64,000 nucleotides of DNA from Strigamia acuminata (GCA_949358305.1 OX442314.1:1178001-1242000); one strand, 5' to 3'. Shown: positions 21,089 through 50,055, counted from the stretch's first letter. Notes: generated from the letters alone by a model not told the origin. Translations and numbers: made by a program.

Positions 21089-21096
21089 TTACTATT

Positions 21097-24807: not shown

Positions 24808-25050
24808 CCACTAGGTGGACACCTCCGAATTCGAAATTCCTACGGACCAATCACGAGACGACAACATAGCGTTTCCGGTTTCGTACACGTTGCGTAAAAG
24901 ACGTTATTCTGCGGTACTTAAGAAGGAATCTTGGCAACATCAAATCATTCTCGTTCCAAGCAAGTGACTGTCCAGTTCGTCTCCTCCGCACGAATCCCGT
25001 CGATTTCCTGTTCCGTATATTTGATTTGATCAATTCATTTTTATTTTCCA

Positions 25051-26713: not shown

Positions 26714-27336
26714 TGTGACCGGCTGCCCGCTCAGTCCGCTCACTTGCCTGCAACACACGGCGCTTCCACGGCTTTCGCGCACCTCGTGTGTTTCTCGCGC
26801 GCACCTGTTGCGGACCCCCGCACCAGGTGGAGCTGATGGTCGTTGGCCCGGCCAATTGGGAACCGGAAGTGCCCCTTCCGGAAGTGGTGGGCCCCGCAGA
26901 GGCCCAAGAGAGTTCTCTAACTTCCAGCATGGCGAACGGTCGCTTCCACGATCGCTCTTCCACGCTGGCGGCAATGACGAATCCAGTTGGCGTAGCGACT
27001 CTGTCGCCCGCCGGGACTTGATAGTCCACGTTCCCCATGTCCGTCCTGCGTTCTCCGTGAACGTAGCGGCGACATGGCTAAACGGTATTCCGACCACGTG
27101 TGTCATGGCGGCCATTGGCCGCCGTGCCACGCGGTCTTGTTAGGGACGGCTGTTCGCAGCCGTCGCATTGGGAAATGCACTGGGAGACACCACATCATAC
27201 CCCTAGACATCAATAAAGCTTACCTTAAACTAAACTTGTGTCTCTTGTGTATTTCGGAGTGAATTCTATCGTGTGTGTTGTGTCCAGCGCCTCGTGGCTC
27301 TCCCCCGACCACGTGGCGACCGTCCAAACACTCACA
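26714..27336 (+). repeat. 3' LTR of Gypsy 2
   Basis: Direct repeat of 16607-17229. Confidence 0.96.
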
Positions 27337-27718
27337 AAACTTTATCACTTTTCAGCTTGATCAGCGTCATCACTTCCTTCAAGTTACATACAAGTAGATT
27401 ACAGAGCAATTCCATTAGCAATTCATGTCTCTTCTTGAGTAAACAAAGCCGATGTTAAACAATTAAAATTGCTATACCAATCGCCATTTTTGGTCGTTTC
27501 TTTTTTATTGTTTCGTTCGGTGTCTGGTTTTTCTTATGCCGAAGCAAAATGGCTGATTTGGACGACCGGACGGGTCATTCCCCGCTTATTGTTTGTTTAA
27601 CATTTCGAGGTTTGTTTATCTGTTGCTGCAGTAACTATTGTTGGAAATTAAAAAAATCAAAATATCTAAACGAATCAAACCAAAATTTTCCGTCGGAATA
27701 TCACCAGCGGGATCTAAA

Positions 27719-29109
27719 ATGCAGACATTAGCAGACATGGCGATTGAAATTCTTTTTAGGTGTCTCATTCAATGGAACGTAGAAGATAATTTTGACGTTA
27801 AAATGAAAGAGACGATGGGATTAATCGCTTATTTCGATGCACTACGTAAGCGACACACGGATGTGTTAAATTTATTTCGTAATTAAAATTGTCAATACAC
27901 ACGGTTCTGTTTAGCCCATACTGTTCGTGACAAAGTGTTGAACAGCTTCGATGATGATCGGTTTTATCACAGTTATCGCGGGTTAGAGGCGTGGGACATT
28001 GCTCCATTTTTATACGAGCAGCAGAAAAGTCTTAAGTTGCGACTTACAAGTCGGAATTTTGATTTGGAATTTTTATTTAAAGTTTGTGGCTACAAATTAA
28101 AAGTAAGTATTAAGATTGTTATATCGCGATTCGTTCTAATGAGATTCGACTGTACAATTTTACAACTCGTCATTGCCGTGTGCGACATCCTTACAAAGAT
28201 TTGTTTACAATTCTTTTAATTGTATCTACCGCATAGAATCTGACGAGGTTAGAATTACCTTACCTGAACAATTCTCCACTGACGGCCAACTTCGTCGAAC
28301 AATTCCGCCACATCACGCCAAATCTACGCACACTACATTTGTTCGGTAAAATTGAAGACGCCGCGATCGTGTACATCGTCCAGCTGCCGCTCGTCGAACT
28401 CGCTGTTTATGACTCGGCGAACTTGGAGTGGATAACTAAAGTGTGCGAAGTAGACTCCGCTCTCAGGAAAACGTTGCGAGTGTTCCGGTTGATGATGGGC
28501 TACTTCCATTGGTACAATTTTGAATTGACCATTCCCAAAATTCTGCGCAGTTTGTCGAGATTTAAGGAGTTGCGCTCCTTGCACCTCATGATTTTGGATT
28601 CGGTCTCGCACATAATGGAGAGAAACGAGCTGTTTTATCGCGATCGTTTGCGCGGTTTGCGTTTTGATAGTTTGCTGGAATTTTCCCTGTTCGATTACGA
28701 CGGTCACTGGAATTCTTACGGTTTATTTTTCATGGTGTTGGATGTGTGTCCGAATTTGGAGAAACTCGTTCTTGCTAATATCCACGGTTTTAGCGATAAA
28801 ATTGCGGGTGAGTTGGCTCAAATGATGGCGAAGAGGAAACTCAAACATCTGGAAATTAGTGAGTGCAATTTTTTGGGGCCGGCCGCCATTGAGGAATTGA
28901 TGAAAATCGAGTGTCTGGTTAAGTTGGAGGTGACATTACGAGTTGATGAGATCAGAAGAGAGCCTTTCGACGTTGTAAAGATGCAGCAAACGGCTGAAAG
29001 ACACGGTGTCAATTTGCAGCTCGGGTTTCTTCCTTGGGACGTGGAGTACAATCGGTACAAGAAGCTCAACGAGTTTAAACTTCACGATTTTTTTTGTAGT
29101 GAAAAATAA
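27719..29109 (+). CDS. LRR-like protein, family copy A (spliced; first intron boundaries uncertain; last exon ~28238-29109)
   Basis: MQTLADMAIEILFR; FDLEFLFKVCGYKLK|gtaag; cysteine-containing LRR-like CPNLEKLVL, KLKHLEISECNFL. Confidence 0.65.
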
Positions 29110-29645
29110 AAAGTAAATATCACATGTCGAACAAGTGTCGTATGTAGATCCGGAACAAACCTTTTTATGAATTTTCTGAGCAATCAAATAGAAATCAATA
29201 TTTCTCATATTTATTTTCAACAAATGGAACTCTAAAGAAATTTTGCATTTATTCAACAGGTGGAGCCACTGTGGCATACCTGGTGGCAGTTGAATTAAAC
29301 GTTCAAAAATGATGCTGCAAAATGGACGACGTTCAAATGAAAAACATTGTTTCGATAAACTAAGTAAGTGAAACCCGGATTTGTGGTGAGAATAAATCAT
29401 TTCCTCACTCGACAGTAATAATTGTTGTTTTTGGTTGTTCTTGCTGTTTGTTGTTATTTTTCTATCTGTTGTAGCTGTTGCGTATCTACTTAGTTACAAA
29501 TTTATAGTATTGTTGCTACTTAGCAACCAAAAGAATGTAGACATAAATAAAGATATTGCTGAGCTGTACGAGCAGCGGCTCTTGTTATTTTCGGAATTTA
29601 AATCTGCCGAGTTTATAACCATTGAAGGAAATTTAGAAAATCAAA

Positions 29646-32428
29646 ATGGTGGTGAAATCATTATCAAACTTGGCTATTAAAATTCTTTTCCGGGCTATTG
29701 TTCAACGGCCGGTTGAAGAAATGGAGGACGATCGAATGAGAACCACGGTGGAATTAATGAATTACTTCAATCAAGTCATTGCTGAATGGGATCGCGGAAA
29801 TTTGATTGTAAATTTTTTTTTTTATTTGATAAATTTGTTGTTCCGGTTTTTCAGTACTGAATCTTGTCAAAGTCCAGCCGTGGATAAACTGGGTGAGTGT
29901 CACTCGGATTTGTGCATTGATTTCGCAATTATTAATGTGAAATTATTTGATTTAGCTCTTCGTAAAGAAATGCTAGAGAAGTTGAATGACGAGGAGTTTT
30001 GGGACTCAAGTGTTCGCGAGCCAGACGCGTGGGATGTTGCTCTATTTGTACACGAAGAGCAGACAGAACTGCAGTTGTGGTATATGAGTCCAAATTTTGA
30101 TTTGGAATTTTTGTTTCGAGTTTGTGGCTACAAGTTGAAAGTGAGTGGACAAAGTGAACTAAATCAGCATACAAAAATTTTATTTTCAAGCAGAAAATGC
30201 ACTCTCAAGCAAAAAAAAATGCATTTTCAAGCAAAATAATACATTTTCAAGCAAAACAATGCATTTTCAAGCAAAATAATGCATTTTCAATAAAAAATAC
30301 TGCATTTTTAACCAAAATAATGCATTTTCAAGCAAATTAATGCATTTTCAAGCGAAATAATGCATTTTTAAGCAAAATAAAGCATTTTCAAACAAAATAA
30401 TGCATTTTTAAGCAAAATAATGCATTTTTAAGCAAAATAATGTATTCTCAAGCAGAAATGTGCATGTAGAAGTGCAAACGTTGCACTTCAAGCTGCAAAA
30501 ATGGCATCTTGAGCAGGGGCGGATTTACATACGGGCTAATGGGGCTTGAGTCCCGGGCCCCCAAATTCTAGGGGGCCCCCAGGACGCAGGGCCATGTAGC
30601 AAAAAAAAAAAAAAAAGAAGGTCGCTAAAAAACAAAAAAGAAGGTTGCTATTAAAATTTGGCCGAGGATATTCTTACGTACGTACGTGAGAATAACGTTT
30701 GCCCGACGAGCCGCTATTCTTACGTACATACGTACGTACGTACGAAAGGGCAAAGATGAAACCCACCAGCATATTTGCCCCTCAAAAAAAAACAAAATGA
30801 ATGCATGAAACAAACACAAAATGAATGCATGAAACAAATAAAAGGAACAGGAACGCCAAACAAAATTCTTGCAGAACAATGCGCGACACGACACGTGTAG
30901 GTGGTATACGTAAGAATAATGATCCCCCCTGGCGGCCCGCAATGTACGTAGGAATAGCCATACGTTATTCTTACGTACGTACGTACGAATATACAGTTTT
31001 TCAGGGGCCGAGAATGGGCTTCCCTGCAATTTACCGTTTGTACGTAAGAATAGCCACGGCGTTAAAATTTTCGATAAAGGGGCCCCGAAAAAACCTCAAG
31101 CCCCGGGCCCCCGAAAAGCTAGATCCGCCCCTGATCTTGAGGTGTAAAAATAGCATCTTTCCGTGTGGAAGTAGCATCTTAATGTGCAGAACTTGCATTT
31201 TCTAAAAACTGCTTTATTGGATAAAATAATATTTTGTACATGAAAAATTTGCATGCACACTAATGTAAAATCCAAAAGACATGCACTTACAACATGCTTT
31301 TGTTATGTGCGGCATTCTTAAAAAAAATTGTTTTAATTCTACTAATTGCATTTATCCGCACAGAATCTAACGGTGTTAGAACTGCCCGAAAATTTTACGC
31401 TGACAGCCAATGCCTGCAAACAAATGTGTCAGTGTTTACCATATTTAGAGAAACTAGATTTGTCTCACATCTTTGTTGAAGACGACGCGGCGACATACAT
31501 CACCCAGATGCCACTCGTCGAACTTCACGCTTGGGAAAGCACCGAAGATTTTGTGCGCAAACTGTGCGCAGAACGCTCCACACTGAGCAAAACGTTGGAA
31601 GTGTTCATGTTGAGCCGTGAACTTTCAATGGACTGCTACTGCTTGATATTAAACACGATGAAATACATCGAACACTTGGACACTAACGATTCCAGGTGGC
31701 TCAAAGCGCTGCTGCCGATCGGCGCGCCACCGCAGCGATACAATCTGACAAGATTGGTGTTTCAGGGCGACGCCATTCAGGAAGAGCTGGAAATTGCCGT
31801 GCTCACTTGTCCGAAAGTTTACGATATTGAAATTGCTCCGAATATTTTCACCTTAAAAATGCTGCACACACTGACGAAATTCAAGCAGTTGCGCAGGTTG
31901 TACTTCAACATGTTTAACGACTCGGACGTGATAATGGCGGAGGAAAATGACTCGTTCGATCGAGTTTGTGTGCCCGATTTGCGGTTTAAGAATTTGGTGC
32001 AATTTACCCTGTCCGATCCCGACGATCGTTGGATTACATCTGGTTTTTGGATCGAGTTGTTGGGCTTGTTTCCCGAATTGGAGGAATTCTCTTTTTTGAC
32101 TTGCCCCGGATTCAGTAACAAAACTGCGCAAGAGTTGGCCGCCGTGATGGCGAAGAAAGTCAAACGTTTGGAATTTCGAGAATGCGATTTGCTGGGGCCG
32201 CCGGGGGTTGAAGAGCTGTTAAAAATCGATTCTCTGGTGGAGTTGAGTGTGAGTTTGCACATTAATGACACAAGAAAACAACATTTTGATGTTGGTGCGT
32301 TGCAGCTAATGGCTGAAGAACACGGCGTTAACTTAAAGTTATATTTACGAGACCCGTTCGATGTGATAGTTGCAAATATGATGGCTGAACATGATGGTGG
32401 CAATGATGCCGACAATGATGGCGACTAA
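29646..32428 (+). CDS. LRR-like protein, family copy B (last exon 31364-32428)
   Basis: MVVKSLSNLAIKILFR; FDLEFLFRVCGYKLK|gtgag at ~30141; acceptor ccgcacag|AATCTAACG; LPYLEKLDLS, FPELEEFSF. Confidence 0.7.
30185..30460. repeat. Intronic ~20-bp minisatellite (AATGCATTTTCAAGCAAAAT)n
   Basis: About 13 degenerate units read directly. Confidence 0.9.
30514..31133. mobile_element. Non-autonomous hAT-like MITE
   Basis: TIRs CAGGGGCGGAT / ATCCGCCCCTG; 8-bp TSD ATCTTGAG at 30506-30513 and 31134-31141; internal TACGTACG motifs. Confidence 0.9.
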
Positions 32429-33129
32429 CGAGTTGTCAGAGGCTGCGTGTCTACATTAATTCGATTTGTTTGTATTCAAAAATTAAATGTCAATATGCCA
32501 TGTCGAACAAGTGTCGTATGTTGATCTGGAACGAACGTTTTTGTATGGATTTTGTCTGAAATTAAATAGTTTTGATGCAGAAATCAACATTTATCATTTA
32601 TTTTCAACAAATGGAACTATAAAGATAATTTTGCATTTATTCAACAGATGGAGCCACTGTGGCAAACCTGGTGGCAGTTTAATGAGTTTCAGCATTTTCT
32701 GCATCAGAAATTAAACATTCCATAATGGTGCTGCAAAATAAAAATGTTTGTTGGATATAATAGACCCTTTGTTCACCCGTTGTTGCAGTAACTATTTTTG
32801 AAAATTATAACAGAAGCAGAAATTTAGAAAATAAAAATTTCTAAGCATCAAGTTCAGAAACTACAAAAAGAGACGAAACCAAGCAAAAAAATTTAAATAT
32901 TAAATTTGTCTGGAATTTATTGCGCAAGAATCTAACACGCAACTAGTCACTCTCTTGTCTGGAGTTGTACTGTGTCGGTTGTGGCCGTTTGACCACAGTC
33001 CGACACCTTGCAGAATCTTCTGTCCTGTTTAGCTGTAATTTAGGACGCAGCTCCAACAATCCGCCATTGCAGCTGCTGAGGATCATCCTCGTAATGTCGC
33101 CAGTGCCAACTGGTGGCAGCCAGTTGGTC

Positions 33130-33260
33130 GCAGACATTAACAGATGTGGCTATTCAAATTTGTATTAGGTGTTTGATTAAATGCAATGTTGAAGAAATGG
33201 ACGACGTTCAAATGAAATACTAAGTGCAATTAATTGCTTCTTTCGATAAACTTCGTAAGT
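33130..33260 (+). pseudogene. LRR-family first-exon remnant lacking its start codon
   Basis: QTLTDVAIQICIRCLIKCNVEEMDDVQMK resembles the copy A N-terminus. Confidence 0.65.
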
Positions 33261-33659
33261 GAAACATTCCTCGCTCGACAGTAATGACAGCGATGACAGC
33301 AGCGATGATAGCGATATTAGTGACTAAAGGAGTTGTCAGATTTAGGCTGTGTCTGCATTAAATCGATTTTATTTGTATTCAGATATAAAGAGTTAATATG
33401 GCATGTCAATAATTGTTGTGTTTGGTTGTTCTTGCTGTTTGTTGTTATTTTTCTACTTAATTTCGTTTATTGTTCTTTCGTTTATCTGTTATGTTGTAGC
33501 TGTTGTGTATCTACGTTACAAATTTATAGTATTGTTGCTACTCAGCAACCAAAACAATGTAGCCAAAATGAACACATCGCTGAGCTGTTCGAGCAGCGGC
33601 TCTTGTTATTTTCGGAATTTAAATCTGCCGAGTTGATGAAGAAAATTTAGAAAATTAAA

Positions 33660-34080
33660 ATGGAGCCGCAGTTTTTGTCAGACATGGCTAATAAAAGTCT
33701 TTATCGGTGTATTATTCAACGGCCGGTTGATGAAATCGAGGACGATCGAATGAAAACCACATTGGAATTAATGGATTACTTCGATAAAATCATTGCTGAG
33801 TGAGATAGCAAAAATTTCATTGTAATTATTTTTTTTTTATTTTATAAATTTTTTATCCAGGTTCAGTATTTTATGTCAAAGACCAGCCGAGAAGAAACTG
33901 CGTAAAAGAATGCTGGTGAGGTTGTGTTACAAGAAGTTTTGGGACGAAAGTGTTCGCGATCCAGACGCGTGGGATGTTGCTCTGTTTGTACACGAAGAGC
34001 AACATGAACTACTGTTGTGGCCTATGAGTCCAAAGTTTGATTTGGAATTTTTGTTTCGAGTTTGTGGCCACAAGTTGAAA
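33660..34080 (+). pseudogene. LRR-family copy C, 5' exons only
   Basis: MEPQFLSDMANKSLYR...; DAWDVALFVHEEQ...FLFRVCGHKLK|gtgag; no LRR exon found downstream on either side of the BEL insertion. Confidence 0.7.
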
Positions 34081-34330
34081 GTGAGTGGACAAAAAGTACT
34101 AAATCCACACAAAATTTATTTCTGCTCGATAAAAACAACAAACATTACATAAAATAAGTACAATTATAAACGAGCAAAAAAATGCACTAAAACATGTATT
34201 TTTGTTATCAAGCCAAATAAAAAGGAAGAACAACAAAATGTGATTAAACATGAAGAAAAACGACAAAATGTGATTAAACTTAAGAGAAATGGCAATATGT
34301 GATTCAGATCAAGACAAATGGAAAAATTTA

Positions 34331-34466
34331 TTAACAAAGGGAAAAATGAGAAAATCTTTTTTTTTAAATAATTAAACACAAAATGACATTTTGTGTTTAA
34401 TTATTTAAAAAAAAAGATTTTCTCATTTTTCCCTTTGTTAAGTTACATTTTGAAAATGTAACTTAA
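34331..34466. repeat. Two adjoining perfect palindromes (55-bp and 14-bp arms, 1-nt loops)
   Basis: 34331-34385 is the reverse complement of 34387-34441; 34438-34451 of 34453-34466. Confidence 0.9.
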
Positions 34467-34683
34467 AAAAACTTAAAAACACATAACTTGGAATAAACAA
34501 AAATAATTAATTTTGTTTAATGGGCTTGAACAATTTTCCAGATTTGCATGCACAGTCGACTATTTCAGTCACAAATGTAAGTATTCTTAAGTATTTTATA
34601 CAGGTTTTAAACGTTTTCAACCACTTTTTAAAAATGGATACAGGCGAGAACAATATTACGGAGTACAATTTAACAGATCTATG

Positions 34684-37631: not shown

Positions 37632-37970
37632 TGTTGAGTTGTGCTGTAAACTTGTAGAAATAATGGCAAATGTAGTGGATTGGAAAAATGCATCAGGTGA
37701 AAGAAAAACACATCATTTTCACAGGTGTGAATCAAAACATCAAGTGAGCTTTATTCATTGGTCACATGACCTGTTGCATAAAGAGCCACCTGTTGGCGGC
37801 ATACAAACACTGTATGTAAACAATCAACGTGATTATTCACGTTGGCTAAATACAAGCAGCAATATTATACAATACGATAATACGATAAAGATATATATAC
37901 ACGCATATAAAGGGCAACTAATACATATGATATCTTAACAATCGGCCCCCTCGTATTATCCTGCTTCGCA

Positions 37971-38328
37971 TCAAACATGCAGAATGCTCAAATCGATTAA
38001 GAAACGATCGCAAAATTTCACTAAGTCAGTTTTATCGACTGACTTTGTAAAAATGTCCGCATGATTAGACTTCGTGCCCACGTGAAGAATTTGGAGATTA
38101 TCTCTTTTCACAAGCTCCCTTATAAAATGGTAACGGACATCAATGTGCTTTGTTTTCCTATTTTCAATACAAGACTTTGTAAAGTCTACTGTCGAAATGT
38201 TATCGCACATGACGTGATGAGGGAAATCATTTGCCAACGCAGGAGAAATTTCGTGCAGGACACGAACAATCCAGATATAGTCCTTAACAGTCTCTGTCAG
38301 GGCTACGTATTCTGCCTCCATCGTAGAC
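37971..38328 (-). pseudogene. Copia A RNase H C-terminal fragment
   Basis: STMEAEYVAL, CDN, TKHIDVRYHFIRE, ADIFTK; joins RNVTL at ~45250 once Copia B is removed. Confidence 0.92.
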
Positions 38329-38333
38329 AGTGT

Positions 38334-41300
38334 TGTTGGTTTGCGATGAATTATTTGCGATAATCATATTTGTTGTGCATTTCCGAGTAGGCACAATAAG
38401 CGCGTTACTTCATATATTGGTACGAATGGTCAGCCAGTTGATTCTGCTTTTTAAACTACGCTTGTTTCGTACTCCAACTGGCTGTGTCTATGTGATAACG
38501 CGCGTCCCGTCGTCTGCTTGTTAAGCGATGATCGTTTAATTTGGTTTGGTATTGTTTATCCATTACTTTAGTCTTTACGTTGTATTATTGTAAAGAATAA
38601 ATCTATTTGGTTATACTAATAGATTTGTTCTCGTTGTTACTCTGTAACCTTAGTTGAGATCAAATAGCCTCAACCCAGATCACTTGTTTTTATGCTTTCA
38701 TGGTGAATAAAGATGGCGGTCGCGTGTTGCGAACTAACCGCACTTTATAATCGGTTTGCAAGTTATTTCCGCATGCTCCAGGTCCAAATACGCTCTTCAA
38801 ATGGTAGCAGAGGATCGGCGACGACCAGCGCCGGCCAATTTTAGAAGAATTGAAGAGAAACGGACATTTTTCCGACTACGAGAAGTCGCAAAGTGCGCGC
38901 CCGCCCAATTCGTCGTGAAAACGAATTTTCGGTGCGGCAAACGTCTGGATTACGTGTGCGGACCATTCTGCAAAGGAATAGGATTCCAACGGTGTAAGGA
39001 ATATTTATTTCGAACGATTTAAACTGTATTTTTGCCGATATAACCGGGCTTTCTCGGGCGGCGCCATTTTTGTTGAGCTTCGCTGCAGAATACGGCGAAG
39101 TTAGTGTGTCTACGCGTGTGTACGGACCGGCACACGCACGCCCAACGATTCTACAACGGAATACGTCGACAGGACGGTATTTTGGAGCGAAGAAACGTCC
39201 CAAAACCGTCATTTTTTCGAGAAATCACCGTGAATCGACGATTTTGTTACGGCGGCCATTTTTCGTCAAAAATAGACGGAAAAACGACGATTTGATTCAC
39301 CGAGAAGTCCTGCACACGATAAGCGTGTGTGTGGGCAATTGTTTCCGTATCTCGCACCAGGAAAGCGAGTACGAAGGCGCAGACGGGCGCTACGACGATT
39401 TTCTCCGCGCTTACACGGATGTGTGTACGCGGATTGCACGTCAGCCGATTCCGTGCGAAGACAACGTGAAGCCGACGTTTAATCCAACGTGGGAACCAGT
39501 TACGACGCGTGGAACCCGTAACTGGCCAACTTCACATCAAAAACTGTATTTTTCGAATTTTTCTCGTGAAACTCTGTTATTTATTAAGGTTTTTGTGTTG
39601 GGTCACTTAGAATATTCTGTACCCTTCGGGCAGTCGCCCCAGTACAGTCTCATTCCAGTCTGGGCTTGTCCGTGGCCAACTAGTCGTCCCGCGTCCCCCA
39701 GGTGGGCCGGTCGGAAGCTAGTAGGGCGACCAGATTTGGGTTTTTCATCTCACTTATTGAGGTGCCCCCTTGGGAAGTGTAAAATTATTTCGCCTTCAAT
39801 TTTTGGGGGCAAATTGCTTCTCCGTGCGACATATTCACGTGTATTGTGAATATTTGTGTTTTTCTTCGGAAATTTTGTGATTTAGCGATTTGTGCGTCGT
39901 TTTTCGTCGAATTTTCTCAACATGGCAAGTTGGGATCGCCGGGACGACTATAAGGACGTGGAAAAATTGAATGGAACGAACTATTCGACGTGGAGTGTTC
40001 AAATCCAACTCCTTTTGCAATCATATGGAGTTTGGGGCCACGTGACTGGCAAGGAGAAGCCCTTGCCAGCCACGGCTTCTGCAAAAGAAGTTAGGGAGTT
40101 TGACAAGCGCGAGGAGAAAGCGCGCTCCACCATTTGTCTGGCTTGTGGAAAAGCCCAACAGGTAGTGGCTGTGGCACACGAAGGGGCCAAAGAGGTTTGG
40201 GAAGCGCTCAAAGCTGCTTACCAGCCCACTACCAGGGCACGCAAAGCCCGACTTCGTCGCGAATTTCTCATGTTGAAACTCCATGAGCAAGAGGAAATGA
40301 TGGTTTTCCTAGCCAGAGTCGACAGGAAGGCGCTGGAACTGAAAGACGTCAAAATAGACATTTCCGACGAATTCCTGGCCTTCCAGTACCTGGATCTGCT
40401 GCCACATCAATACGAAACGGTCAAGCAGACGGTCTACCACTGGGGAGACCCGGAATTCACCTCGAAGGCCGTCAAAGAACGTTTATTAGGCGAATATAAT
40501 CGCCTCTACGAGCAAACGGATGAATTTGGTGTTTCATTGGGCACAATTGAGAATACGGGTGCCTATTTCACCAAAGGCAGATGGCAACGTGGCCGGGGGG
40601 GAAATGCCCCCAGTTCTCCACGCGTCTGTTACAACTGTGGCGGAACAAATCACTTCGCCCGGGAATGCTCGTCCCCACCAAAACAGCAACAAGGTGCTAC
40701 GAGAGGAAACCCGACAGGACAGTTCAGCAGGGGCAGTCAACGAGGGAAGAGTCGTGGGAAGAGCCAGCAGACGGCCAACGTCACGCAAATGGACATTTTT
40801 GGCAATTCCCCGGTGTCTTATTTCTCCGCAGCGATTTGCCAAGAACAACCCCCTGTTGTAGTGTCTTTATTGTCGCATGCGAACTACGATTCGCAATGGT
40901 ACGTCGACACAGGTGCGACGGACCACTTTTCGTTCAACAAAACCTGGTTTTCGGACTTTAAACCATTGACTGGTTATTCTGTTCAACAAGGAGACGGAAA
41001 GTCGAAAATCGAAGGCATTGGAAATGTGACTTTAGTTTCGATTAATGGACAACAAACACGTGAACTAACGTTGAAAAACGTTTATTACGCACCCAACTTC
41101 AAAAAGAATTTGATTTCTTTAGGTCGTACGGATGAAGCTGGGGCGACAACCATTGTGAAGAATGGTAAAATGTTTATTTATGATGTGACAATTGATGACC
41201 CTTCTATCACTGCGATCCGTACGAGTGATAGGATGTACAAAGTCAATTGTCGCATTAATGCAAAGAATTCTGTAAACACTGTTGCATTGTCTGCGCAACA

Positions 41301-44300
41301 GAGTGCAACGGTGGCATCTAGTCCACCTTTAGCGGGTGAAGAAATTGTTAAATCTTTACTAACACACGTTGATTTTAGAACCGCATTAACCCAAAATTTG
41401 AGTAAATCAGGGAAACCTGTACCTGCGAGAAAGGGGCAAGCGAAAACTGCGAATACTGCGCCAGCGATCGTTGCAAACAATGCGAGTATGGAAATTTCGA
41501 ATCAACAATCGAGTGTTTTGACCGACACACAGTCTAGCTTAGTAGCCAGCAAGGGCAATAAGCCCAAGGATGCGAAAATTTTGAGAACAATTGTGCAAAA
41601 CAATTTAACAAATGGAAATGGGGTTGTAAATGGAAAGAATGCTTCCATTAAACCAGATAAACCCCAAACGATGGACATCTGGCACTCTCGTATGGGACAC
41701 CTTAATGCAAAGGGAATTGCATTGTTAAACAAATCTACTGAAGTGTTTGGTTTGAAGTTGTCCAACACGGAATTGTCGAGTTGTGATGCTTGTTCGAGGG
41801 CGAAAAGCACACGTGCCAGTTTTCCCCCCATTGCGACCATTTCGACCAAAGGGATTTTAGAAATCGTCCATTTAGACGTGTGGGGCCCTTCACCAGTTAA
41901 GAGCATAGGTGGGGCGTACTACTATTTGGTCATGGTCGATGACTTCTCACGATTGATGTGGATCGTGATTATGAAGAAAAAGAGCGAAGTTTTGGGCCAT
42001 TTTAAGAAGTGGTTAACCGAAATTGAAAGAACGACTTCTAGGAAAGTCAAGTCGATCAAAACTGACAATGGAGGGGAATTCGTATCCAAACAATGGGATG
42101 AATATGCCGGTAGCATTGGGCTGAAGTGTATGCGGACGAACGCATACAGCCCTGAGATGAACTCCATCGCTGAAAGAACGAACCGTACCATTCTCGGTGG
42201 AATTAGAGCTTTAATGATTGAAAATAGTCTTCCTTCATCCCTGTGGGCAGAACTCGCAGTTTCTGTCGTTTACTTAAAGAACCGGTTTCCGCATGCGGGA
42301 TTGGGTGGGAGGACACCTTATAATGTGTTTTTCAACAAGAAATTATCCCTACGACATGTCAAATGCATTGGTGCTTTGACTTATGTGCATATCCCTTCGC
42401 AGACAAGGGCTGGGAAGTTACAAGAGAGAGCATGGGCGGGGGCCTTAGTTGGATATGCCTCTTCCACCCGTGGTTATCGGATTTGGGATCCGAACAAAAA
42501 CCAAGTTTTTCTCTCAAAACACGTTAAAATTTTGGAACAGAATTTCTGGTACGAGAAAGTAAAGAATCCCCAATCTGGCCCATCACCTGCTACTGACGAT
42601 TCAGATTTATCAGGCGAAGAGTCTTGTAATGACTCTGACACAGACAGTGTTTATAGCGAACCTATCCCCGAGGAAGAGGTCAAAGTGGTTGAAAAACTCG
42701 TGGAGAGACCCATTCAGGCCAGACCACCTGGGGGACCCGACTATGTAGATGCCATGCAATACATCATTGGAGATATACATGGCCTAAATTTTGATGAAAT
42801 CGGTGGGGCGAAGGGGGATGATAGGGATTTCTTCAATATTTATCCCGACGACGATGAAGGAGAAGTTGAAGAGGAAGTTGAGGACCCAGATGCAAGCCCT
42901 CAATTGTCGCCCCAATCGTCACCCACACCCCCTCGTCGGAACCCGCCTAGAAAAGGGAAAGACACTGGCGAACGCACAGCTTCAACGAGTGACTTGTTGC
43001 CTCTAGATATGACTTTGTGGCAAAGACGGCAGACTGTACGTCAAAGCGGGGCAACAGCTGGGAAAGTTGATGTTTGGTACATCACACCAAAGCACGAGAA
43101 GCTCCGCAGCCGTGTTGAGGTTGTCCGTTGGTGCAAAGCCGAGGGATATGAATATAAATCGGAATTGTTTAACTTCAAAGATGTGACTATCGGTTTTGCT
43201 GGTTGCTGCTCTGTCGAGCCGGACACGTACGAAGAAGCGGTCAAAGGCGCCAGCAAACCTGATTGGGAAAACGCGATGGAAGACGAAATAAATATCTTCA
43301 AAGAGCGTGAGGTTTATGTCGAAGTCGACAAAGACCAAGTTAAAGACAAAACCTTATTGGGATCAAAATGGATATACAAGTTAAAAAGGGATCACACGGG
43401 TACGATTAGAAGATATCGTGCTCGTCTCGTTGCACAAGGCTTCAAGCAGAAGCCAGGCATTGACTTTACTGAGGTATTTTCCCCAGTAGTCAATTTTGTG
43501 TTAGTCATGATGTTCTTCTGTGTCTTAGTGGTACTGAGGGGCTGGCGTGACGTACACCTTGACATTAAGGCCGCATACCTATATGGGGACCTCGACGAAG
43601 TGCAATATATCCACATCCCAAAAGGATATCGAACGACTGAAAACCAACACAAATGTTGGGAATTGAGAAAGTCTCTTTACGGGCTTCATCAGTCTGGTCG
43701 TATGTGGTACCAGCGACTCCACGACCAGCTGATTGAAATTGGATTTGAACCGGTCTTGGGTCTCAATTGCGTGTATAGCTTGGGCACTGACGCTATACTT
43801 ATTTTCTATGTCGATGACATTGTATTGTTTTCAAAAGACAACATAGCAGAGGAGTGCGTTTTGGATTGGATTCAACAATCATTTGAGATTGTCAATTTGG
43901 GCCCCGTCACCCTTTTGTTAGGGATAGAGTTTTGTAGGGACGGGGAGAATATCTTTATTCATCAGCGCGCTTATATTGCAAAGTTGTGTAAGCAATATGG
44001 GATTGACTCTTGTCATCGAGTTAGAGTGCCTGGCACCCCGGGCACCATGATCCAAAAGGTTCAGACGGGGGAACGTGTCAATTCGAGTTTTCCGTATCGG
44101 TCTCTTGTCGGCAGTTTGCTTTTCATCGCAAGTCGTACAAGACCCGATATTTTGTTTTCGGTGATAGTGTTGTCTCAATACAACGAGACTCACTCGACTC
44201 GACACGTGAACATGCTGCTCCAAATCCTGCGATACTTGGGGAACACGCCAAATTTCTCTATCAACTTGGGAAACTGCCAAAGCGAAAATTTGACCGTTTA

Positions 44301-45249
44301 TACGGATGCGTCCTTCGCATTAGACCAGGACAAACGTCGAAGCTTTGGTGGGCACATCATCTACCTGGGAGGTGTCCCAATCTCATGGAACTGCCATAAG
44401 CAGACCATTACAGCACTTTCCATTATGGAAAGCGAATTTTTGGCGGTGGTCGATGGTGTAAAGGAGATAATTTGGTTGGAGCGCATATTTGGTGCGGATG
44501 TGATGATGGATGGGCTCAACCGGGAAATACCATGTGTTTACGCTGATTCAATGCCAGCGATCCAATATGCGAAGAATCGCATAGAAAATCGCGCAAACAA
44601 ACATATTGACGTTAAGTTGCATTTCGTGCGCGACTGGTTTGAAAAAGGTGTTTTTCGAATCAGACATATCCCGGGAACCCTTAATGTAGCCGACCTTATG
44701 ACCAAGTGGCTATCTCGCGCAAAACTAGATGCATTGTGCGAGCATATTTTTGTAGCGGCAAAGTAGTTCATCGAAGGGGGATTTGTTCGTTTGCGATGAA
44801 TTATTTGCGATAATCATATTTGTTGTGCATTTCCGAGTAGGCACAATAAGCGCGTTACTTCATATATTGGTACGAATGGTCAGCCAGTTGATTCTGCTTT
44901 TTAAACTACGCTTGTTTCGTACTCCAACTGGCTGTGTCTATGTGATAACGCGCGTCCCGTCGTCTGCTTGTTAAGCGATGATCGTTTAATTTGGTTTGGT
45001 ATTGTTTATCCATTACTTTAGTCTTTACGTTGTATTATTGTAAAGAATAAATCTATTTGGTTATACTAATAGATTTGTTCTCGTTGTTACTCTGTAACCT
45101 TAGTTGAGATCAAATAGCCTCAACCCAGATCACTTGTTTTTATGCTTTCATGGTGAATAAAGATGGCGGTCGCGTGTTGCGAACTAACCGCACTTTATAA
45201 TCGGTTTGCAAGTTATTTCCGCATGCTCCAGGTCCAAATACGCTCTTCA
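38334..45249 (+). mobile_element. Complete Ty1/Copia element B with MBD-like domain (potentially active)
   Basis: 466-bp LTRs 38334-38799 and 44784-45249 with one mismatch seen (position 5); AGTGT TSD; tRNA-iMet PBS TGGTAGCAGAGGAT at 38802; PPT GAAGGGGGA. Confidence 0.96.
39922..44766 (+). CDS. Copia B Gag-Pol polyprotein (Gag, CCHC, PR, IN, MBD-like, RT, RNase H), intact
   Basis: CYNCGGTNHFAREC, WYVDTGA, WHSRMGH, TDNGGEF, RARLVAQGF, YVDD, YTDAS, KHIDV; MBD-like segment at ~43000-43180. Confidence 0.95.
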   Translation: MASWDRRDDYKDVEKLNGTNYSTWSVQIQLLLQSYGVWGHVTGKEKPLPATASAKEVREFDKREEKARSTICLACGKAQQVVAVAHEGAKEVWEALKAAYQPTTRARKARLRREFLMLKLHEQEEMMVFLARVDRKALELKDVKIDISDEFLAFQYLDLLPHQYETVKQTVYHWGDPEFTSKAVKERLLGEYNRLYEQTDEFGVSLGTIENTGAYFTKGRWQRGRGGNAPSSPRVCYNCGGTNHFARECSSPPKQQQGATRGNPTGQFSRGSQRGKSRGKSQQTANVTQMDIFGNSPVSYFSAAICQEQPPVVVSLLSHANYDSQWYVDTGATDHFSFNKTWFSDFKPLTGYSVQQGDGKSKIEGIGNVTLVSINGQQTRELTLKNVYYAPNFKKNLISLGRTDEAGATTIVKNGKMFIYDVTIDDPSITAIRTSDRMYKVNCRINAKNSVNTVALSAQQSATVASSPPLAGEEIVKSLLTHVDFRTALTQNLSKSGKPVPARKGQAKTANTAPAIVANNASMEISNQQSSVLTDTQSSLVASKGNKPKDAKILRTIVQNNLTNGNGVVNGKNASIKPDKPQTMDIWHSRMGHLNAKGIALLNKSTEVFGLKLSNTELSSCDACSRAKSTRASFPPIATISTKGILEIVHLDVWGPSPVKSIGGAYYYLVMVDDFSRLMWIVIMKKKSEVLGHFKKWLTEIERTTSRKVKSIKTDNGGEFVSKQWDEYAGSIGLKCMRTNAYSPEMNSIAERTNRTILGGIRALMIENSLPSSLWAELAVSVVYLKNRFPHAGLGGRTPYNVFFNKKLSLRHVKCIGALTYVHIPSQTRAGKLQERAWAGALVGYASSTRGYRIWDPNKNQVFLSKHVKILEQNFWYEKVKNPQSGPSPATDDSDLSGEESCNDSDTDSVYSEPIPEEEVKVVEKLVERPIQARPPGGPDYVDAMQYIIGDIHGLNFDEIGGAKGDDRDFFNIYPDDDEGEVEEEVEDPDASPQLSPQSSPTPPRRNPPRKGKDTGERTASTSDLLPLDMTLWQRRQTVRQSGATAGKVDVWYITPKHEKLRSRVEVVRWCKAEGYEYKSELFNFKDVTIGFAGCCSVEPDTYEEAVKGASKPDWENAMEDEINIFKEREVYVEVDKDQVKDKTLLGSKWIYKLKRDHTGTIRRYRARLVAQGFKQKPGIDFTEVFSPVVNFVLVMMFFCVLVVLRGWRDVHLDIKAAYLYGDLDEVQYIHIPKGYRTTENQHKCWELRKSLYGLHQSGRMWYQRLHDQLIEIGFEPVLGLNCVYSLGTDAILIFYVDDIVLFSKDNIAEECVLDWIQQSFEIVNLGPVTLLLGIEFCRDGENIFIHQRAYIAKLCKQYGIDSCHRVRVPGTPGTMIQKVQTGERVNSSFPYRSLVGSLLFIASRTRPDILFSVIVLSQYNETHSTRHVNMLLQILRYLGNTPNFSINLGNCQSENLTVYTDASFALDQDKRRSFGGHIIYLGGVPISWNCHKQTITALSIMESEFLAVVDGVKEIIWLERIFGADVMMDGLNREIPCVYADSMPAIQYAKNRIENRANKHIDVKLHFVRDWFEKGVFRIRHIPGTLNVADLMTKWLSRAKLDALCEHIFVAAK

Positions 45250-48200
45250 AGTGTCACATTCCTTTGTTTGAATGTTCTCCAGTAAATGGGCGTACTGCCC
45301 AGTGTTATTAACGTTCCTCCAACGGAGATCCTGTCGTCTCTGTTGTTCGCGTAATCGGAGTCGCTGTACCCAATTATCTCGATCCGATTACTGGGGAACA
45401 ACATTAATCCATGACTTCTTGTTGTTCTCAGATAACTGAGTAGGTCCAGTAACGCAATCCAGTGATCCCATCCCGGATTCGATTGAAATTGGCTTAAGAT
45501 GTTAACCGCATAAGTCATGTCGGGCCTTGTTCTCGACGCGATAAAAGCCAGACATCCAAGTAAGCTTCGATATGGAATTCCTTCCATAATTTTGAATTCA
45601 TCGATCGTAGTCGGACAATCTTGTTTTGTGAGGATAGTTGCTTTCGTCATTGGTTGAGATCGAATTTTCACGTGTTCGAGGTGGTTCTTGAACTTCAACA
45701 ATACTTTGTTCACGTATGATCTTTGGTGAAGAATTAATTGTTGTTTGTATGAATGAAATTCTACTCCCAACAACTTCTTTGTTTGTCCGAGGATCACCAG
45801 GTCAAATTGCGTTCCGATCATATTGAGTATTTGCACCGCATGTTCGTGCTGCTTTCCGAAAACTACAATATCGTCAACGTAGACGATTAGATACGCGATA
45901 TCTCCGTACTTATAAACGCAATTGCACCAATTCACGTGCTCAAGTCCTAGTTTCAATAAAGTTTCCTCCAGTTCTATGCCCCATTCTCTTCCAGATTGGT
46001 GCAGTCCGTATATGGCTCGGAGGAGCTTGCAGACATAGTTCTCCTTGCCTTCGGAAATGAAACCTTTTGGCTGACGCATGTAGACAGTTTTATGCAATTT
46101 TGCGTAAAGATACGCACACTTGACGTCAGCTTGAATGTAAGACCATTTGAGCATACAAACGAGTAGCGTGAACATGAAGCGCACGATTGAAAAGTCCACC
46201 ACGGGTGAGAATGTCTCCTCATACGACTCGCCGTAGACTTGGAAGAAACCTTGCGCGACAAGTCTCGCCTTATAACGTGCGATTTCCCCCTCTTCATTCT
46301 GTTTGGTCGTATAAATCCATCTACAACCCACTATCTTAGTGTTGGGCGGTGGTGGAACGAGTTCCCAAACCTCGCGCTCATGCATGGTGTCTATCGCGTC
46401 GTTCATCGCTTGGCGCCATTCATTTCTTTCGGGTAAAGTCGCAATTTCCTCATAACGCACGGGTACGTAGACTTCTAGGTGATTGGCTTCGAAGTTGATA
46501 TTCATATCATCAAAGTCCACGTCAAGACTATCTGTCGTCGTATTCGATTCTGAGGGCTTTTTCTTCCTTTTGTCCTCAAACAGATGCTCAGGAACACGAA
46601 GATTGTGGTCGGCACAGTAACGCTTCACGTCAGGTATTGAGCGTAATTTGGGTTTGTCATAACCCTGGATCGTGTACTCGACATCCTTCTGTCCAGTTGG
46701 CCTGATCTTTTCTGTTTTCTTCCAAACTAGTGCAGGAATAGTTGGAACTGGATTCAAAAGTCCTTGTCCAGGTTGTGGCAAAGTGCCTTGCAACTTCACT
46801 TCTGGTCTAACATTTGGCAAATTGGTTTGAAGTTTCTCTTCAGGCAATCTAAACTTCAATTTGACTTGAGGTAATTCCAGTTGTGGGTCCTCTTCCTTCT
46901 TGACTGGTACTGGCGGGGGTAGTGGCGGCCTGACATCTTCATCCGAATAATATTGGCGCTCATTGTCATTATCTAAATTGTCGTCCAAATTATCGATGTA
47001 AGTCGTGTACTTTTCTGGTAAGCCCAGCACGCCTTCAACTCCGCGCCTGCTTTCTACGAACTTGACATCGCTTGTCTCGATTACTTTGGAAAATACTCGA
47101 TATCCTTTCGTGATTCTCGAATACCCGAGCATAATGCCATGCAGACTCTTGTTATCGATCTTGCCATCTCGAATTCTTTTCTGCACAAAGCATAAACTCC
47201 CGAATTTCCTCAAATGTCTAAGTGATGGTTTCCGTCCGTAGTACAATTCCATTGGCGTCTTGTCCGAATTCAGCTTTGCGATCCTGTTCCTGAGGTAGTT
47301 GAACGTCAGGATGGCTTCTCCCCAGAATCGATGTTCCAAGCCGGCATCGTAGACAAGCGCTCGCATCCCATTTGCTAATGTCTGGTTAAGTCTTTCGGAA
47401 ACGCCATTTTGGACAGGAGTGTACGCGTTAGTCCTTTCGTGGGCGATTCCTAGACCTTGGAGATACTCTCCAAACTTGTTTGAGCAGAACTCCATACCGT
47501 TATCCGTACGAATTGCGAGAACCGATTTCCCGAGCAATCGTTCTATTCGTTTCACGTGTTTTTGGAAAATGTCAAATACTTCGTCCTTCTTCTTCATTAA
47601 GTAGACTGTGGAATAACGAGAGAAGTCGTCCGTGATAGTTAAGAAGTATATGTTTCCCGAGAGTGTTGGTGTGCTAAATGCTCCACATACATCCATGTGT
47701 AGCAATTAGAGTGGCTCTGTCGATCTAATTCCTGGCAATGACTTATGAGAAATCGCTTTCTTCTTGGCTAATGTGCAAACATCGCATTGTGTGATTGGCA
47801 CATCCAAAATTGGCAATCCAATTACTGCACCTCTTTTGCTCATTGCTTGCACGCTTGGAAAATAGATGTGTCCGAGCCGCTCATGCCAAAGTCTTGCTTC
47901 CTCAGGATTAGACGCGCTCTTTGTTGTACTCTGTGTTGAAATAGTTGGCTCTTGTTTCTTTTGTTCGCCAACGTTCGCCTTGTTCTTCGCTTTTTGTCGT
48001 AACTTGTCAAAGTCTGGCTTCTGGTCGCTTAGTTTGATATAATATAAACGATCCTTCTTCACGCCTTCCATCAGCTGTCTCTTCCACTGAGGATCGTATA
48101 TCTTGACCAGTCCGGAGCCAACGGCGACTTTGCATCGTGCTTCGTCGATGCACGGTCCCGACAATAAATTTCTTCGCATGTCCGGCGCATAATAGACTTT

Positions 48201-49370
48201 CTTCAATGTGATTGGAATTGTCTCACTTCCAACCAAACACATCACGCAAACGTCCTCGACGCCCTGAATTTGAATCAAAGTTTTCTTATCCGCTTGACTT
48301 ATTGTCCCTGTGGTTTCCTTGAAGTTAAAGAATTGGTTCCTGTCTTTGCAGAAATGTCCAGTGGCCCCGGTGTCGTAGATCCAACAGTTGTTGGCTGCGC
48401 TGCACTGCAACATTTCTTCCTCGCTCAATTCGGTGAGAAAACCGACATCGAACATGTTTGTGTCCAATTCTTCCGCCGTATTTGTGTTCTGGCTGTTATT
48501 CGACGGTAATTGTGCTGTGCAATCCCTCGCCCAGTGGCCTGGTTGATTGCACCGGAAACACGGCCCCCGTGGTGATGATCCGGTCGTATTTCCTCTGAAA
48601 TTCCGCGAATTTTTGCCGCCTCGATAATTCGATTTGCCGCCCCTTTGTCCGCCTCGGCTGTTTTGGCTGCTGTTCCCTTGCTGTTGTTGGGATTTAGACG
48701 AATTGTCACTGTTCTTAGCGTTGGGGGAACTTGTTCCCATGTTGAATGCGTCCACAATTGGTCCTTGACCCAAATTCCTTCTTTGTTGCGCGAGTCTGCC
48801 CTCTTCGGCGACCAATTCTGCTTCAACTTTTTCCAACGTGAAGTCCTTATCCTCCCATCGATAAATGCTTTGAACAATGGACTGGTACTCTTGTGGCAGG
48901 TATCGAATGAGCTGAAACGCCTGATACAAGTTGTCTAAATCGTGTTTGACGTTGGCTAGTCGCTTCGCCGCATTGCGTATCTTCGCCGCGAATACGCCGA
49001 TCGTTTCCGTCGTCGGATCGTATTTAAGGCTGAAAAATTCGTCCAGCAGACGTATTATCCTCGCCCTCGAGACCGGTTTGAAGTTGGTTTTCAGCGTGTC
49101 CCACGCTGTTTTCGCATCCTCGGTCCCGCTGAGCAATTCGTGATATTGCTCTTCAATGGCGTAATAAATTAGGCTGAATGCTCGTCCCTTCCGTAGTTGA
49201 TAATCCGAACGATCTCGCCAAGATGCTCCCGGTGCCAGCGCTTCTTGTGTCCCGTCAGTGAATGCCCAACATCCGTGATGCATCAACAGCACTTTGATTT
49301 GCTGTTTCCAAGTGTCATAGTTTGTTCTGTTCAAAAGTGTTATTTTCCTTTCCGGTTTGTCCGTATCCAT
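45250..49370 (-). pseudogene. Copia A Gag-Pol with a premature TAA at 47706-47708
   Basis: CFRCNQPGHWARDC, WIYDTGA, WHERLGH, EPL*LLHMDVCG, TDNGMEF, KARLVAQGF, YVDD; MBD-like segment at ~46578-46730. Confidence 0.92.
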
Positions 49371-50055
49371 TGTGATTTAGGAAAACAATCTCTTCAAACT
49401 GCACACACACACACTTTTTCAGCAAAAACACTTTCAAAACGGTTACTCGTGAAAAATAGTGCAATTTCCACGAGGTTAGTGCGCTCTTAAGATTATGTTA
49501 GTGTCAATCCTATCACAGCACTAATCTAACAATTATATCAACAATATATTCCAAATAAATATCAATATCGATTATAAACAAAAGTTCTAGTCTTCTTGTG
49601 TTGTTTTCTCCTCGTTTTAGTGTCTTTTTCGCCTCGAAAATTCGTCCATTAAACTTTTCCGCGTCTTTCCAATCGTTTTTCGTCCGCAGCTCGTTCACAC
49701 TTCCCGTGTGGTTGCCGAGAGTCGTCGTCGTTACGTCTTCCTCGTTGAGTCGTTTTCTCGACGAAAGAATCAACGACACGTTGACAAAACGTATCGCGCC
49801 TCGCGATATTCGGAAAAATTGTCCGAAAATTGGAAAATTGAACTTATTAATGAAAAGTTTCGTAATGTTCGAACCCATTTATTGTTCCTGCGTCACTTGA
49901 TGGCCAATAATCGCTTGTTAAACCGTGGATGCTTGGCTGAGACACAGGTTGCTTCCATTCCTCATGGGCGCCGCCATCTTGGATTTGGAGGAGAAACGCC
50001 CTCTTTTTCACCTGTGGTTGACTTGGATTGTTTTTCAGTCACTCTGCACGTTTTA

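What the first reader, a model, noticed from the sequence alone, without database searches (positions are those of the whole stretch)
42994..43180. Intact Copia polyprotein with an MBD-like domain between integrase and RT
Seen: WQRRQTVRQSGATAGKVDVWYITPKHEKLRSRVEVVRWC...FNF in an uninterrupted polyprotein whose LTRs differ at one visible position. Known: this fits the MeCP2/MBD2 pattern (GW.R....R.SG..AG..DVYY..P.G..LRS..E...Y...FDF), including both CpG-contacting Arg residues and the Asp. MBD-bearing Copia elements have been described in some arthropods (de Mendoza et al. 2019), so the class is not new. Inference: a chromatin reader on the integrase C-terminus, analogous to chromovirus chromodomains, in a copy that may still be active.
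Basis: partly seen in the sequence, partly recalled or inferred. Interest (0 to 1): 0.85.

Follow-up and report, generated by a model that had tools for sequence, protein, structure and literature searches.

The report
Young Copia with altered methyl-DNA reader
A young, intact jumping gene in a probably arthropod genome carries a methyl-DNA-reader domain of a kind already described in a centipede and spiders, but with tryptophan where the methyl-sensing tyrosine normally sits, so it likely steers insertions to CpG-rich DNA with weaker or altered methyl selectivity.

Summary
A 6.9-kb Copia element (38334-45249) has 466-bp LTRs with one mismatch, a 5-bp target duplication and one 1614-aa ORF. 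It carries a true MBD between integrase and RT (Pfam 46.5 bits against a cutoff of 21; MBD fold). Its integrase groups with a Strigamia CopiaMBD fragment, so it belongs to the family of de Mendoza et al. 2019.

The methyl-sensing Tyr (MeCP2 Y123) is Trp here, while both Arg and the Asp are kept. All 22 published CopiaMBD rows have Tyr. No difference is listed at the Trp codon in three sequencing runs, and 8 of 9 listed differences within the domain are synonymous.

The element sits inside a second, distant MBD-clade Copia whose eroded MBD has Glu at that site. The window shows no CpG depletion.

The best reading (0.6) is an integrase-tethered CpG reader that biases insertion, with reduced or shifted methyl selectivity. 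Binding, expression and targeting are untested. Verdict: new variant of a known kind.

The parts
38334..45249 (+). Copia element A (6916 bp), full length
   Evidence: LTR pair, TSD, PBS, PPT and single ORF; ends confirmed by contigs that skip 6921 nt with 5 shared letters
38329..38333 (.). left target-site duplication (AGTGT)
38334..38799 (+). 5' LTR, 466 bp, TG...CA
   Evidence: 1 mismatch to the 3' LTR, at 38338
38802..38815 (+). primer-binding site
   Evidence: sequence shown; its match to the 3' end of initiator Met tRNA is recalled, not tested
38800..39921 (+). 1.1-kb CpG-rich leader
   Evidence: CpG o/e 1.62, 9.4 CpG per 100 bp
39922..44766 (+). gag-pol polyprotein ORF, 1614 aa, no stop or frameshift
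   Evidence: catalytic motifs of protease, integrase, RT and RNase H present
41656..42552 (+). integrase: zinc-binding part, catalytic core, SH3-like domain (aa 579-877)
   Evidence: PF13976, PF00665, PF25597
42553..43017 (+). 155-aa acidic, Pro-rich linker, likely disordered
   Evidence: 25% D+E and 12% P, against 12% D+E in the whole protein; disorder is inferred
43018..43182 (+). methyl-CpG-binding domain (aa 1033-1087) with R1040, D1050, R1062 and S1063 kept
43075..43077 (+). Trp1052 at the position of MeCP2 Y123 / MBD1 Y34
   Evidence: ungapped alignment to MBD1, column tally, no listed difference in 3 runs
43336..44031 (+). reverse transcriptase (RVT_2), followed by RNase H to the ORF end
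   Evidence: PF07727, E 2.8e-52
44773..44781 (+). polypurine tract
44784..45249 (+). 3' LTR, 466 bp
45250..45254 (.). right target-site duplication (AGTGT)
45255..50054 (-). Copia element B, main part (target of A): one in-frame stop in integrase near 47706, RNase H interrupted by A, 5' LTR not present
46575..46724 (-). eroded MBD-like domain of element B: Arg-Asp-Arg kept, Glu at the Tyr position (46677-46679)
   Evidence: no Pfam MBD hit; own profiles give 15.8-39.7 bits against at most 5.1 in 1000 shuffles
37632..38328 (-). Copia element B, 3' remainder with probable 3' LTR (about 37632-37942)
   Evidence: LTR limits inferred

Best explanation
This is an intact, recently inserted Copia retrotransposon of the CopiaMBD family whose MBD likely stays on the C-terminus of integrase and likely biases insertion toward CpG-dense DNA, with methyl selectivity predicted to be weakened or shifted because Trp replaces the methyl-sensing Tyr. 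Shown: the element's anatomy, the MBD by profile and fold, the kept Arg-Asp-Arg set, the Trp, purifying selection on the domain among family copies, and grouping with a Strigamia CopiaMBD. Inferred steps: (1) the protease cuts in the short hydrophobic stretch between the MBD and the start of RT, leaving the MBD on integrase; (2) the two arginines bind the guanines of CpG and stack on the cytosines, as in MeCP2 and MBD2; (3) without the Tyr hydroxyl, affinity and mCpG/CpG contrast fall, as in MBD3, but some methyl preference remains; (4) the tether draws the intasome to CpG-dense, repeat-rich regions.
For: Domain. Family: the Strigamia T1IM28 fragment (P0126; SH3 directly followed by an MBD that matches the paper's clade B row by eye) is the best integrase C-terminal match among 118 hits (104 bits, 50% identity). 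It shares a starred 12-row set with A (95/88). The RT tree puts A in a 76-row clade (SH-aLRT 99) that holds all 31 MBD or MBD-like rows. Selection: 8 of 9 listed differences in aa 1033-1086 are synonymous against 0.32 expected (p 7e-4). Three Strigamia CopiaMBD domains bind methylated CpG-dense DNA by DAP-seq, and young copies lie in CpG-denser flanks (PMC6673714). Copia-family integrases carry C-terminal targeting domains (Ty1, Ty5; PMC7459421). [quoted passage not shown] A landed inside another LTR element.
Against: There are no binding data for any Trp-bearing MBD; the Phe and Gln/Thr results are only analogies, and a bulkier Trp might block the groove instead. The CpG density around A's insertion site is ordinary (6.0 per 100 bp, 62nd percentile of the window), and one site in a repeat-dense window says little. 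The host shows no sign of CpG decay, so there may be little methylation to read. The paper itself says a role outside integration cannot be rejected. The protease site is not mapped. No Strigamia or Stegodyphus RT was in my RT tree, which was the quick version.
Confidence: 0.6

Rival explanations
1. The reader has been retuned. The host has little CpG methylation, and the domain now reads unmethylated CpG-dense DNA (or another mark) with no methyl preference.
For: Both MBD-clade Copia in the window, from two distant RT subclades, lack the Tyr (Trp and Glu) yet keep Arg-Asp-Arg. Of 16 other retroelement segments with that set, 15 have Tyr and 1 has Phe (Fisher p 0.02). Window CpG o/e is 1.13 and four exons of the RNF216-like host gene score 1.16-1.50. 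Among A-family transitions, 3 of 15 fall at CpG against 28 of 86 background sites. PMC5240623 states that methyl selectivity derives from this Tyr.
Against: The test is post hoc, the rows are related and some are near-copies, and only one host gene was examined. In Strigamia, methylated transposons are also CpG-dense, so CpG content does not discriminate. All three myriapods in PMC8821070 keep all DNMTs. Whether B's Glu is family-wide was not seen. No host genome was held to look for DNMT1 or DNMT3.
Confidence: 0.2
2. The MBD is functional but acts outside target choice. It might compete with host MBD proteins on the element's own CpG-rich leader, hold the cDNA, or bind chromatin through a methyl-lysine pocket.
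For: The leader is very CpG-rich (o/e 1.62). The paper lists competition with host MBDs as a possible role. MeCP2's MBD is reported to bind H3K27me3 through five aromatic residues (PMC12857291). Eight relatives in A's sister RT clade keep an MBD-like domain without the Asp and second Arg, so the fold can persist without CpG contacts.
Against: A keeps every CpG-contact residue except the Tyr. Only 3 of the 5 cage positions are aromatic in A (W1033, W1070, F1083; mapped by eye). Published insertion biases follow host methylation in two species.
Confidence: 0.13
3. The MBD is a decaying relic and the Trp is a step in its loss.
For: MBD erosion is common in the clade: element B, the Trichonephila copies and A's sister clade all show it.
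Against: 8 of 9 listed differences are synonymous. Tyr to Trp needs two base changes (genetic code). A is the top scorer, of 242 Copia proteins, against a profile of non-retroelement MBDs (62.4 bits), although that profile's members were found with A as the query.
Confidence: 0.04
4. On origin only: A's MBD is a second, independent capture from a host gene rather than the inherited CopiaMBD domain.
For: In a 65-column MBD tree A pairs with a krill protein (P0128, 53% identity) at 89/89 rather than with other retroelement MBDs.
Against: That branch is not starred, and an AU test does not reject one clade of the 23 retroelement MBDs (p 0.49). The domain sits at the same position in the polyprotein as in relatives and has the helix Cys seen in 31 of 40 retroelement segments. 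Integrase and RT both lie within the MBD-bearing clade.
Confidence: 0.07

Closest known systems
CopiaMBD retrotransposons of Strigamia maritima and Stegodyphus spiders (de Mendoza, Pflueger, Lister 2019; PMC6673714)
   Same: Copia domain order with PF01429 between integrase and RT in one ORF; Arg-Asp-Arg and helix Cys; integrase groups with Strigamia T1IM28; purifying selection on the MBD.
   Different: Trp instead of Tyr at the methyl-sensing site (Tyr in 22 of 22 rows of Table S3 and 3 of 3 tested domains in Table S8). The host is another species (its RNF216-like gene is 71% identical to Strigamia's in the RING exon). Binding is untested.
Mammalian MBD3 (Phe34)
   Same: An MBD with both arginines and a non-Tyr aromatic at the same position.
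   Different: Phe, not Trp; a host NuRD subunit, not retroelement-borne. Measured about 5-fold weaker mCG binding than MBD2.
MeCP2 / MBD1 / MBD2 / MBD4 MBD domains
   Same: Sequence (E 7e-8 to 6e-4) and fold (rmsd 1.3-2.3 for most top rows).
   Different: They have Tyr and attached repressor or glycosylase modules.
Ty1 and Ty5 integrase targeting domains; chromovirus chromodomains
   Same: A chromatin-tethering module at the integrase C-terminus after a long low-complexity linker (works-like analogy; PMC7459421 passages; chromoviruses as cited in PMC6673714).
   Different: Those bind proteins (AC40, Sir4) or histones; this is a folded DNA-reader domain. No homology.

Membership tests
Ty1/Copia LTR retrotransposon | gag-PR-IN-RT-RH order with RVT_2-type RT | tested here: met
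Ty1/Copia LTR retrotransposon | TG...CA LTRs, 5-bp TSD, PBS, PPT | tested here: met
   the identity of the primer tRNA is recalled
MBD domain (PF01429) | score above the Pfam gathering cutoff | tested here: met
   46.5 bits alone and 40.1 in the polyprotein, cutoff 21
MBD domain (PF01429) | MBD fold | tested here: met
   model pLDDT 86; the top 10 VIA rows are all MBD, first other row Z 3.4. The model used an MBD alignment, so it is not independent of the sequence match
canonical methyl-CpG readers (MeCP2/MBD1/MBD2) | two arginine fingers and the Asp | tested here: met
   R1040, D1050, R1062
canonical methyl-CpG readers (MeCP2/MBD1/MBD2) | Tyr at Y123/Y34 | tested here: not met
   Trp1052
canonical methyl-CpG readers (MeCP2/MBD1/MBD2) | selective binding of methylated CpG | not testable with these tools
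   needs EMSA, ITC or DAP-seq
CopiaMBD (PMC6673714) | MBD next to integrase in the same ORF, upstream of RT | tested here: met
CopiaMBD (PMC6673714) | common ancestry with published elements, by integrase | tested here: met
   starred set with Strigamia T1IM28, 95/88, on 108 columns
CopiaMBD (PMC6673714) | monophyly with published elements in the RT tree | tested here: inconclusive
   A lies in the SH-aLRT 99 clade of all MBD-bearing rows, including Araneus and Trichonephila. No Strigamia or Stegodyphus RT was available; Table S2 cells were cut
CopiaMBD (PMC6673714) | purifying selection on the MBD | tested here: met
   8 of 9 listed differences synonymous; small sample, only differences at 5% share or more are listed
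CopiaMBD (PMC6673714) | insertions biased to CpG-dense or methylated flanks | tested here: inconclusive
   one site, 62nd percentile of window CpG density, inside another LTR element; no genome held
CopiaMBD (PMC6673714) | arthropod host | tested here: inconclusive
   the host gene is closest to Strigamia (816 bits against 434 for the best mollusc), but only 22 proteins were returned and no insect or chelicerate was among the named ones

The most novel reading that the evidence does not exclude
A retrotransposon's captured epigenetic reader has been retuned to its host. In a genome with little CpG methylation, two separate CopiaMBD lineages each dropped the methyl-sensing Tyr but kept the CpG-binding arginines, and the Trp form is a selected reader of unmethylated CpG-dense DNA (or of another base mark) that still steers integration.
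Probability: 0.2. Interest if true: 0.75.

Novelty: new variant of a known kind. Interest (0 to 1): 0.5.

Why it matters
CopiaMBD is known from one paper in the searched library, in one centipede and two spiders. That paper argues the strategy depends on the host methylome and should be unstable when methylation changes. This window gives an intact, nearly identical-LTR copy in another host, with a natural substitution under purifying selection at the residue tied to methyl selectivity. A second lineage in the same locus lost that residue too. One binding assay on a 60-residue domain plus a host methylome would test whether transposon-borne readers track host methylation. The homologue survey also suggests the clade is wider than published. 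It includes Araneus and Trichonephila clavipes, a species the paper scanned without a hit, whose copies carry an eroded MBD-like domain. If the Trp domain simply binds mCpG more weakly, this is an ordinary range extension.

Tried and rejected
AlphaFold on the single sequence gave pLDDT 55 and a non-MBD topology and was not used. No whole genome is held, so copy number, other insertion sites and DNMT genes could not be examined. No RNA holder was listed among the sequencing runs; this says nothing about expression.

The joint that skips element A in runs X2 and X3 was considered as an empty allele. It was rejected as evidence of polymorphism because uninterrupted copies of the multi-copy B family give the same joint. 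Contig depth was not used as copy number.

The metagenome scan returned 7 loci, all matching RT only, none with an MBD by profile. Pfam finds no MBD in element B; only own profiles do. The first own profile unknowingly held Strigamia and spider retroelement MBDs and was rebuilt without them. The WD40 design proteins Ika4/Ika8 are repeat-summed artefacts.

The CpG-transition test on repeats in the window (3 of 273 against 43 of 953) is dominated by identical LTRs and has little power. The careful RT tree did not finish and the quick tree is reported. No tRNA gene lies in the window. Ten relatives looked up for names had no organism label.

Literature: 'CopiaMBD' finds only PMC6673714. A search for follow-ups from 2020 (11 listed of 12) and one for Trp at this position (12 listed of 54) showed none by title or abstract start. 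PMC11889832 has no 'MBD' or 'methyl' in its text. The library lacks most subscription journals.

Full report
Observation. The finding lies in one open frame, 39922-44766, of 1614 aa. Pfam gives gag, a CCHC knuckle, protease, integrase core, SH3, MBD (aa 1033-1087) and RVT_2 in Copia order. The MBD scores 46.5 bits alone (E 2.9e-12, cutoff 21). By phmmer it matches solved MBD1, MBD2, MBD4, MeCP2 and MBD3 domains (best E 7.4e-8). A model built on a 19-row MBD alignment has pLDDT 86 and overlays MeCP2 and MBD4. The single-sequence model failed, so the fold evidence rests on the alignment.

Element. The LTRs are 38334-38799 and 44784-45249, 466 bp each with one mismatch and TG...CA ends, flanked by AGTGT on both sides. 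A PBS and a polypurine tract are in place. Catalytic motifs of all four enzymes are present. Three public runs from two studies hold 57-69% of the element's words; one may be the window's own source. Their contigs show many variants 90-99% alike, so this is a multi-copy family. Contigs that skip 6921 nt with 5 shared letters confirm the ends. The copy is very young and intact. Activity is not shown.

Context. A is inserted in the RNase H region of a minus-strand Copia (B). B has one in-frame stop in integrase, lacks its 5' LTR, and lies within a BEL/Pao element. Much of the window is young LTR elements. A host RNF216-like gene is closest to Strigamia maritima (71% in the RING exon; 816 bits against 434 for the best mollusc). 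The host is probably an arthropod and may be a myriapod. This placement is loose, because the search returned only 22 proteins.

Ungapped alignment to MBD1 and MeCP2 maps R1040, D1050 and R1062 to the two arginine fingers and the Asp, and W1052 to Y34/Y123. De Mendoza et al. stress that this Tyr is kept in CopiaMBDs. All 22 CopiaMBD rows of their Table S3 and all 3 tested domains have it. Among 38 other retroelement segments gathered here the column holds Y 28, R 8 (one misaligned), Q 1, F 1 and W 0; some rows are near-copies. Of the 16 that keep Arg-Asp-Arg, 15 have Tyr and 1 has Phe. Among 30 non-retroelement segments, 29 have Tyr and 1 has Trp. No difference is listed at the Trp codon in three runs that cover it. 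Of 18 listed differences in 271 nt, 16 are synonymous, and 8 of 9 inside the domain (expected 0.32, p 7e-4). Only differences at 5% share or more are listed. The Trp therefore appears family-wide in a domain under purifying selection.

Element B. Profiles built without A or B find an MBD-like stretch in B at the same position (15.8, 26.2 and 39.7 bits; best of 1000 shuffles 5.1). It keeps Arg-Asp-Arg with Glu at the Tyr site. A and B hold the only such stretches in the window's six frames.

Relationships. The RT tree used 111 of the 235 rows with at least 200 aa of RT (all MBD rows, top hits, and every third of the rest) and the quick method. One 76-row clade (SH-aLRT 99) holds all 31 MBD or MBD-like rows; A and B fall in different subclades. 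The clade also has 45 rows with no MBD found. Of 15 inspected, 9 start at or just before RT, 5 were not resolved and 1 has a linker without MBD. No RT of the published species was available. The integrase C-terminal tree used 51 rows (22 MBD rows and 29 of 87 others) and 108 columns. It groups A with Strigamia T1IM28 at 95/88. T1IM28 looks like a fusion of two element fragments, and its SH3 runs into an MBD like the paper's clade B row (by eye). In the MBD tree (51 of 70 segments; partial, duplicate and highly eroded rows dropped) A pairs with a krill protein without a star, and one clade of retroelement MBDs is not rejected (p-AU 0.49).

Mechanism. The MBD follows a 155-aa acidic, Pro-rich linker and ends about ten residues before the conserved start of RT. 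A short hydrophobic stretch lies between them in A, B and several relatives. I infer that the protease cuts there, leaving the MBD at the integrase C-terminus, where Ty1 and Ty5 keep their targeting domains. The arginines give CpG recognition and part of the methyl preference (PMC3315304; PMC8874921). The Tyr adds affinity and selectivity: F34Y raises MBD3 binding about tenfold, yet Tyr is not strictly required, while PMC5240623 ascribes selectivity to it. The likeliest outcome is a CpG reader with weaker methyl contrast that still biases insertion (0.6). Against this, the one visible insertion site has ordinary CpG density, and no Trp-bearing MBD has been measured in what I found.

The bolder reading. 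Both resident lineages lack the Tyr (2 of 2 against 1 of 16; p 0.02, post hoc, related rows). The window shows no CpG decay: o/e 1.13 overall, 1.16-1.50 in four host exons, and 3 of 15 family transitions at CpG against 28 of 86 background sites. This fits a host with little methylation and readers retuned to unmethylated CpG. It is weak evidence: one gene was examined, Strigamia's methylated transposons are CpG-dense too, and the three myriapods surveyed keep all DNMTs. Probability 0.2.

Novelty. New here are the host, an intact near-identical-LTR copy, the Trp variant, a nested second lineage with an eroded MBD, and signs of a wider clade with repeated erosion. The scan's own notes hold no match by sequence or genome. 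One note by words, e1-6728511, concerns an MBD-derived gene in a DNA transposon of another genome and was not checked. Verdict: new variant of a known kind, interest 0.5.

What I saw of each paper. PMC6673714: parts 1-4 of 7 of the text; supplement Tables S1, S3 and S8, with S2 and S4 cut and the figure PDF not opened. 10.1101/338061, PMC3315304, PMC8874921, PMC5240623, PMC8821070, PMC7459421 and PMC11889832: passages only. PMC12857291: abstract and passages. Chromovirus targeting: only as cited in PMC6673714. Recalled and from no call: the PBS match to initiator Met tRNA, the reading of the catalytic motifs, and the Harbinger label for DDE_Tnp_4.

Noticed in passing
window 46575-46724 (-): The target element B is itself an MBD-clade Copia of the spider-like subclade, with an eroded MBD-like domain (Glu at the Tyr site) that Pfam misses.
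   Followed up: yes
window 34684-56333: Triple nest: a BEL/Pao element (LTRs 97.7% alike) holds a DDE_Tnp_4 (Harbinger-type) transposase and Copia B, which holds Copia A. B's 5' LTR and what looks like the BEL RT core are absent at the 50054 junction.
   Followed up: partly
window 16607-27337 and 56860-61204: Two further LTR elements with 100% identical LTRs (624 and 630 bp). The first is a Gypsy with an extra 399-aa ORF (25030-26229) without Pfam hit; the second is about 4.3 kb and its one long ORF is gag.
   Followed up: partly
window 3044-9719 (+): Gypsy pol interrupted near 5040-5630 by a repeat also found near 54520; its integrase ORF runs on for about 770 aa without Pfam hit.
   Followed up: no
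window 11848-14668 (+): RNF216-like RBR ubiquitin-ligase gene with mostly short introns, closest to Strigamia T1J958, with CpG-rich exons (o/e 1.16-1.50).
   Followed up: partly
window 27900-34600 (+): Tandem duplicated leucine-rich genes with no strong Pfam match, and a 20-bp tandem array at 30173-30497.
   Followed up: no
proteins P0004-P0008, P0010, P0177, P0181: A's sister RT clade (unnamed hosts) keeps an MBD-like domain that lacks the Asp and second Arg and has Arg or Gln at the Tyr site: a possibly re-purposed MBD fold.
   Followed up: partly
proteins P0009, P0011, P0020, P0129, P0186, P0287, P0293 (Trichonephila clavipes); P0283, P0292 (Araneus ventricosus): Named spider Copia proteins carry canonical (Araneus) or eroded (Trichonephila) MBDs, beyond the published host list.
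   Followed up: partly
proteins P0128, P0131, P0134, P0140, P0144, P0147: Six non-retroelement MBDs (four named crustacean; P0131 and P0147 have an HhH-GPD match, MBD4-like) share the helix Cys typical of CopiaMBD, a lead on the unresolved donor family. The tree does not resolve it.
   Followed up: partly
protein P0136: The only other MBD seen with Trp at the Tyr site: one of two MBDs in an unnamed 710-aa protein.
   Followed up: no
window 42963-43230, runs X1 and X2: A contig about 80% alike to A (53 differences over 268 nt) points to a sister subfamily in the same organism.
   Followed up: no
window 38998-39849 (+): A 283-codon stop-free frame in A's leader; no function was sought.
   Followed up: no
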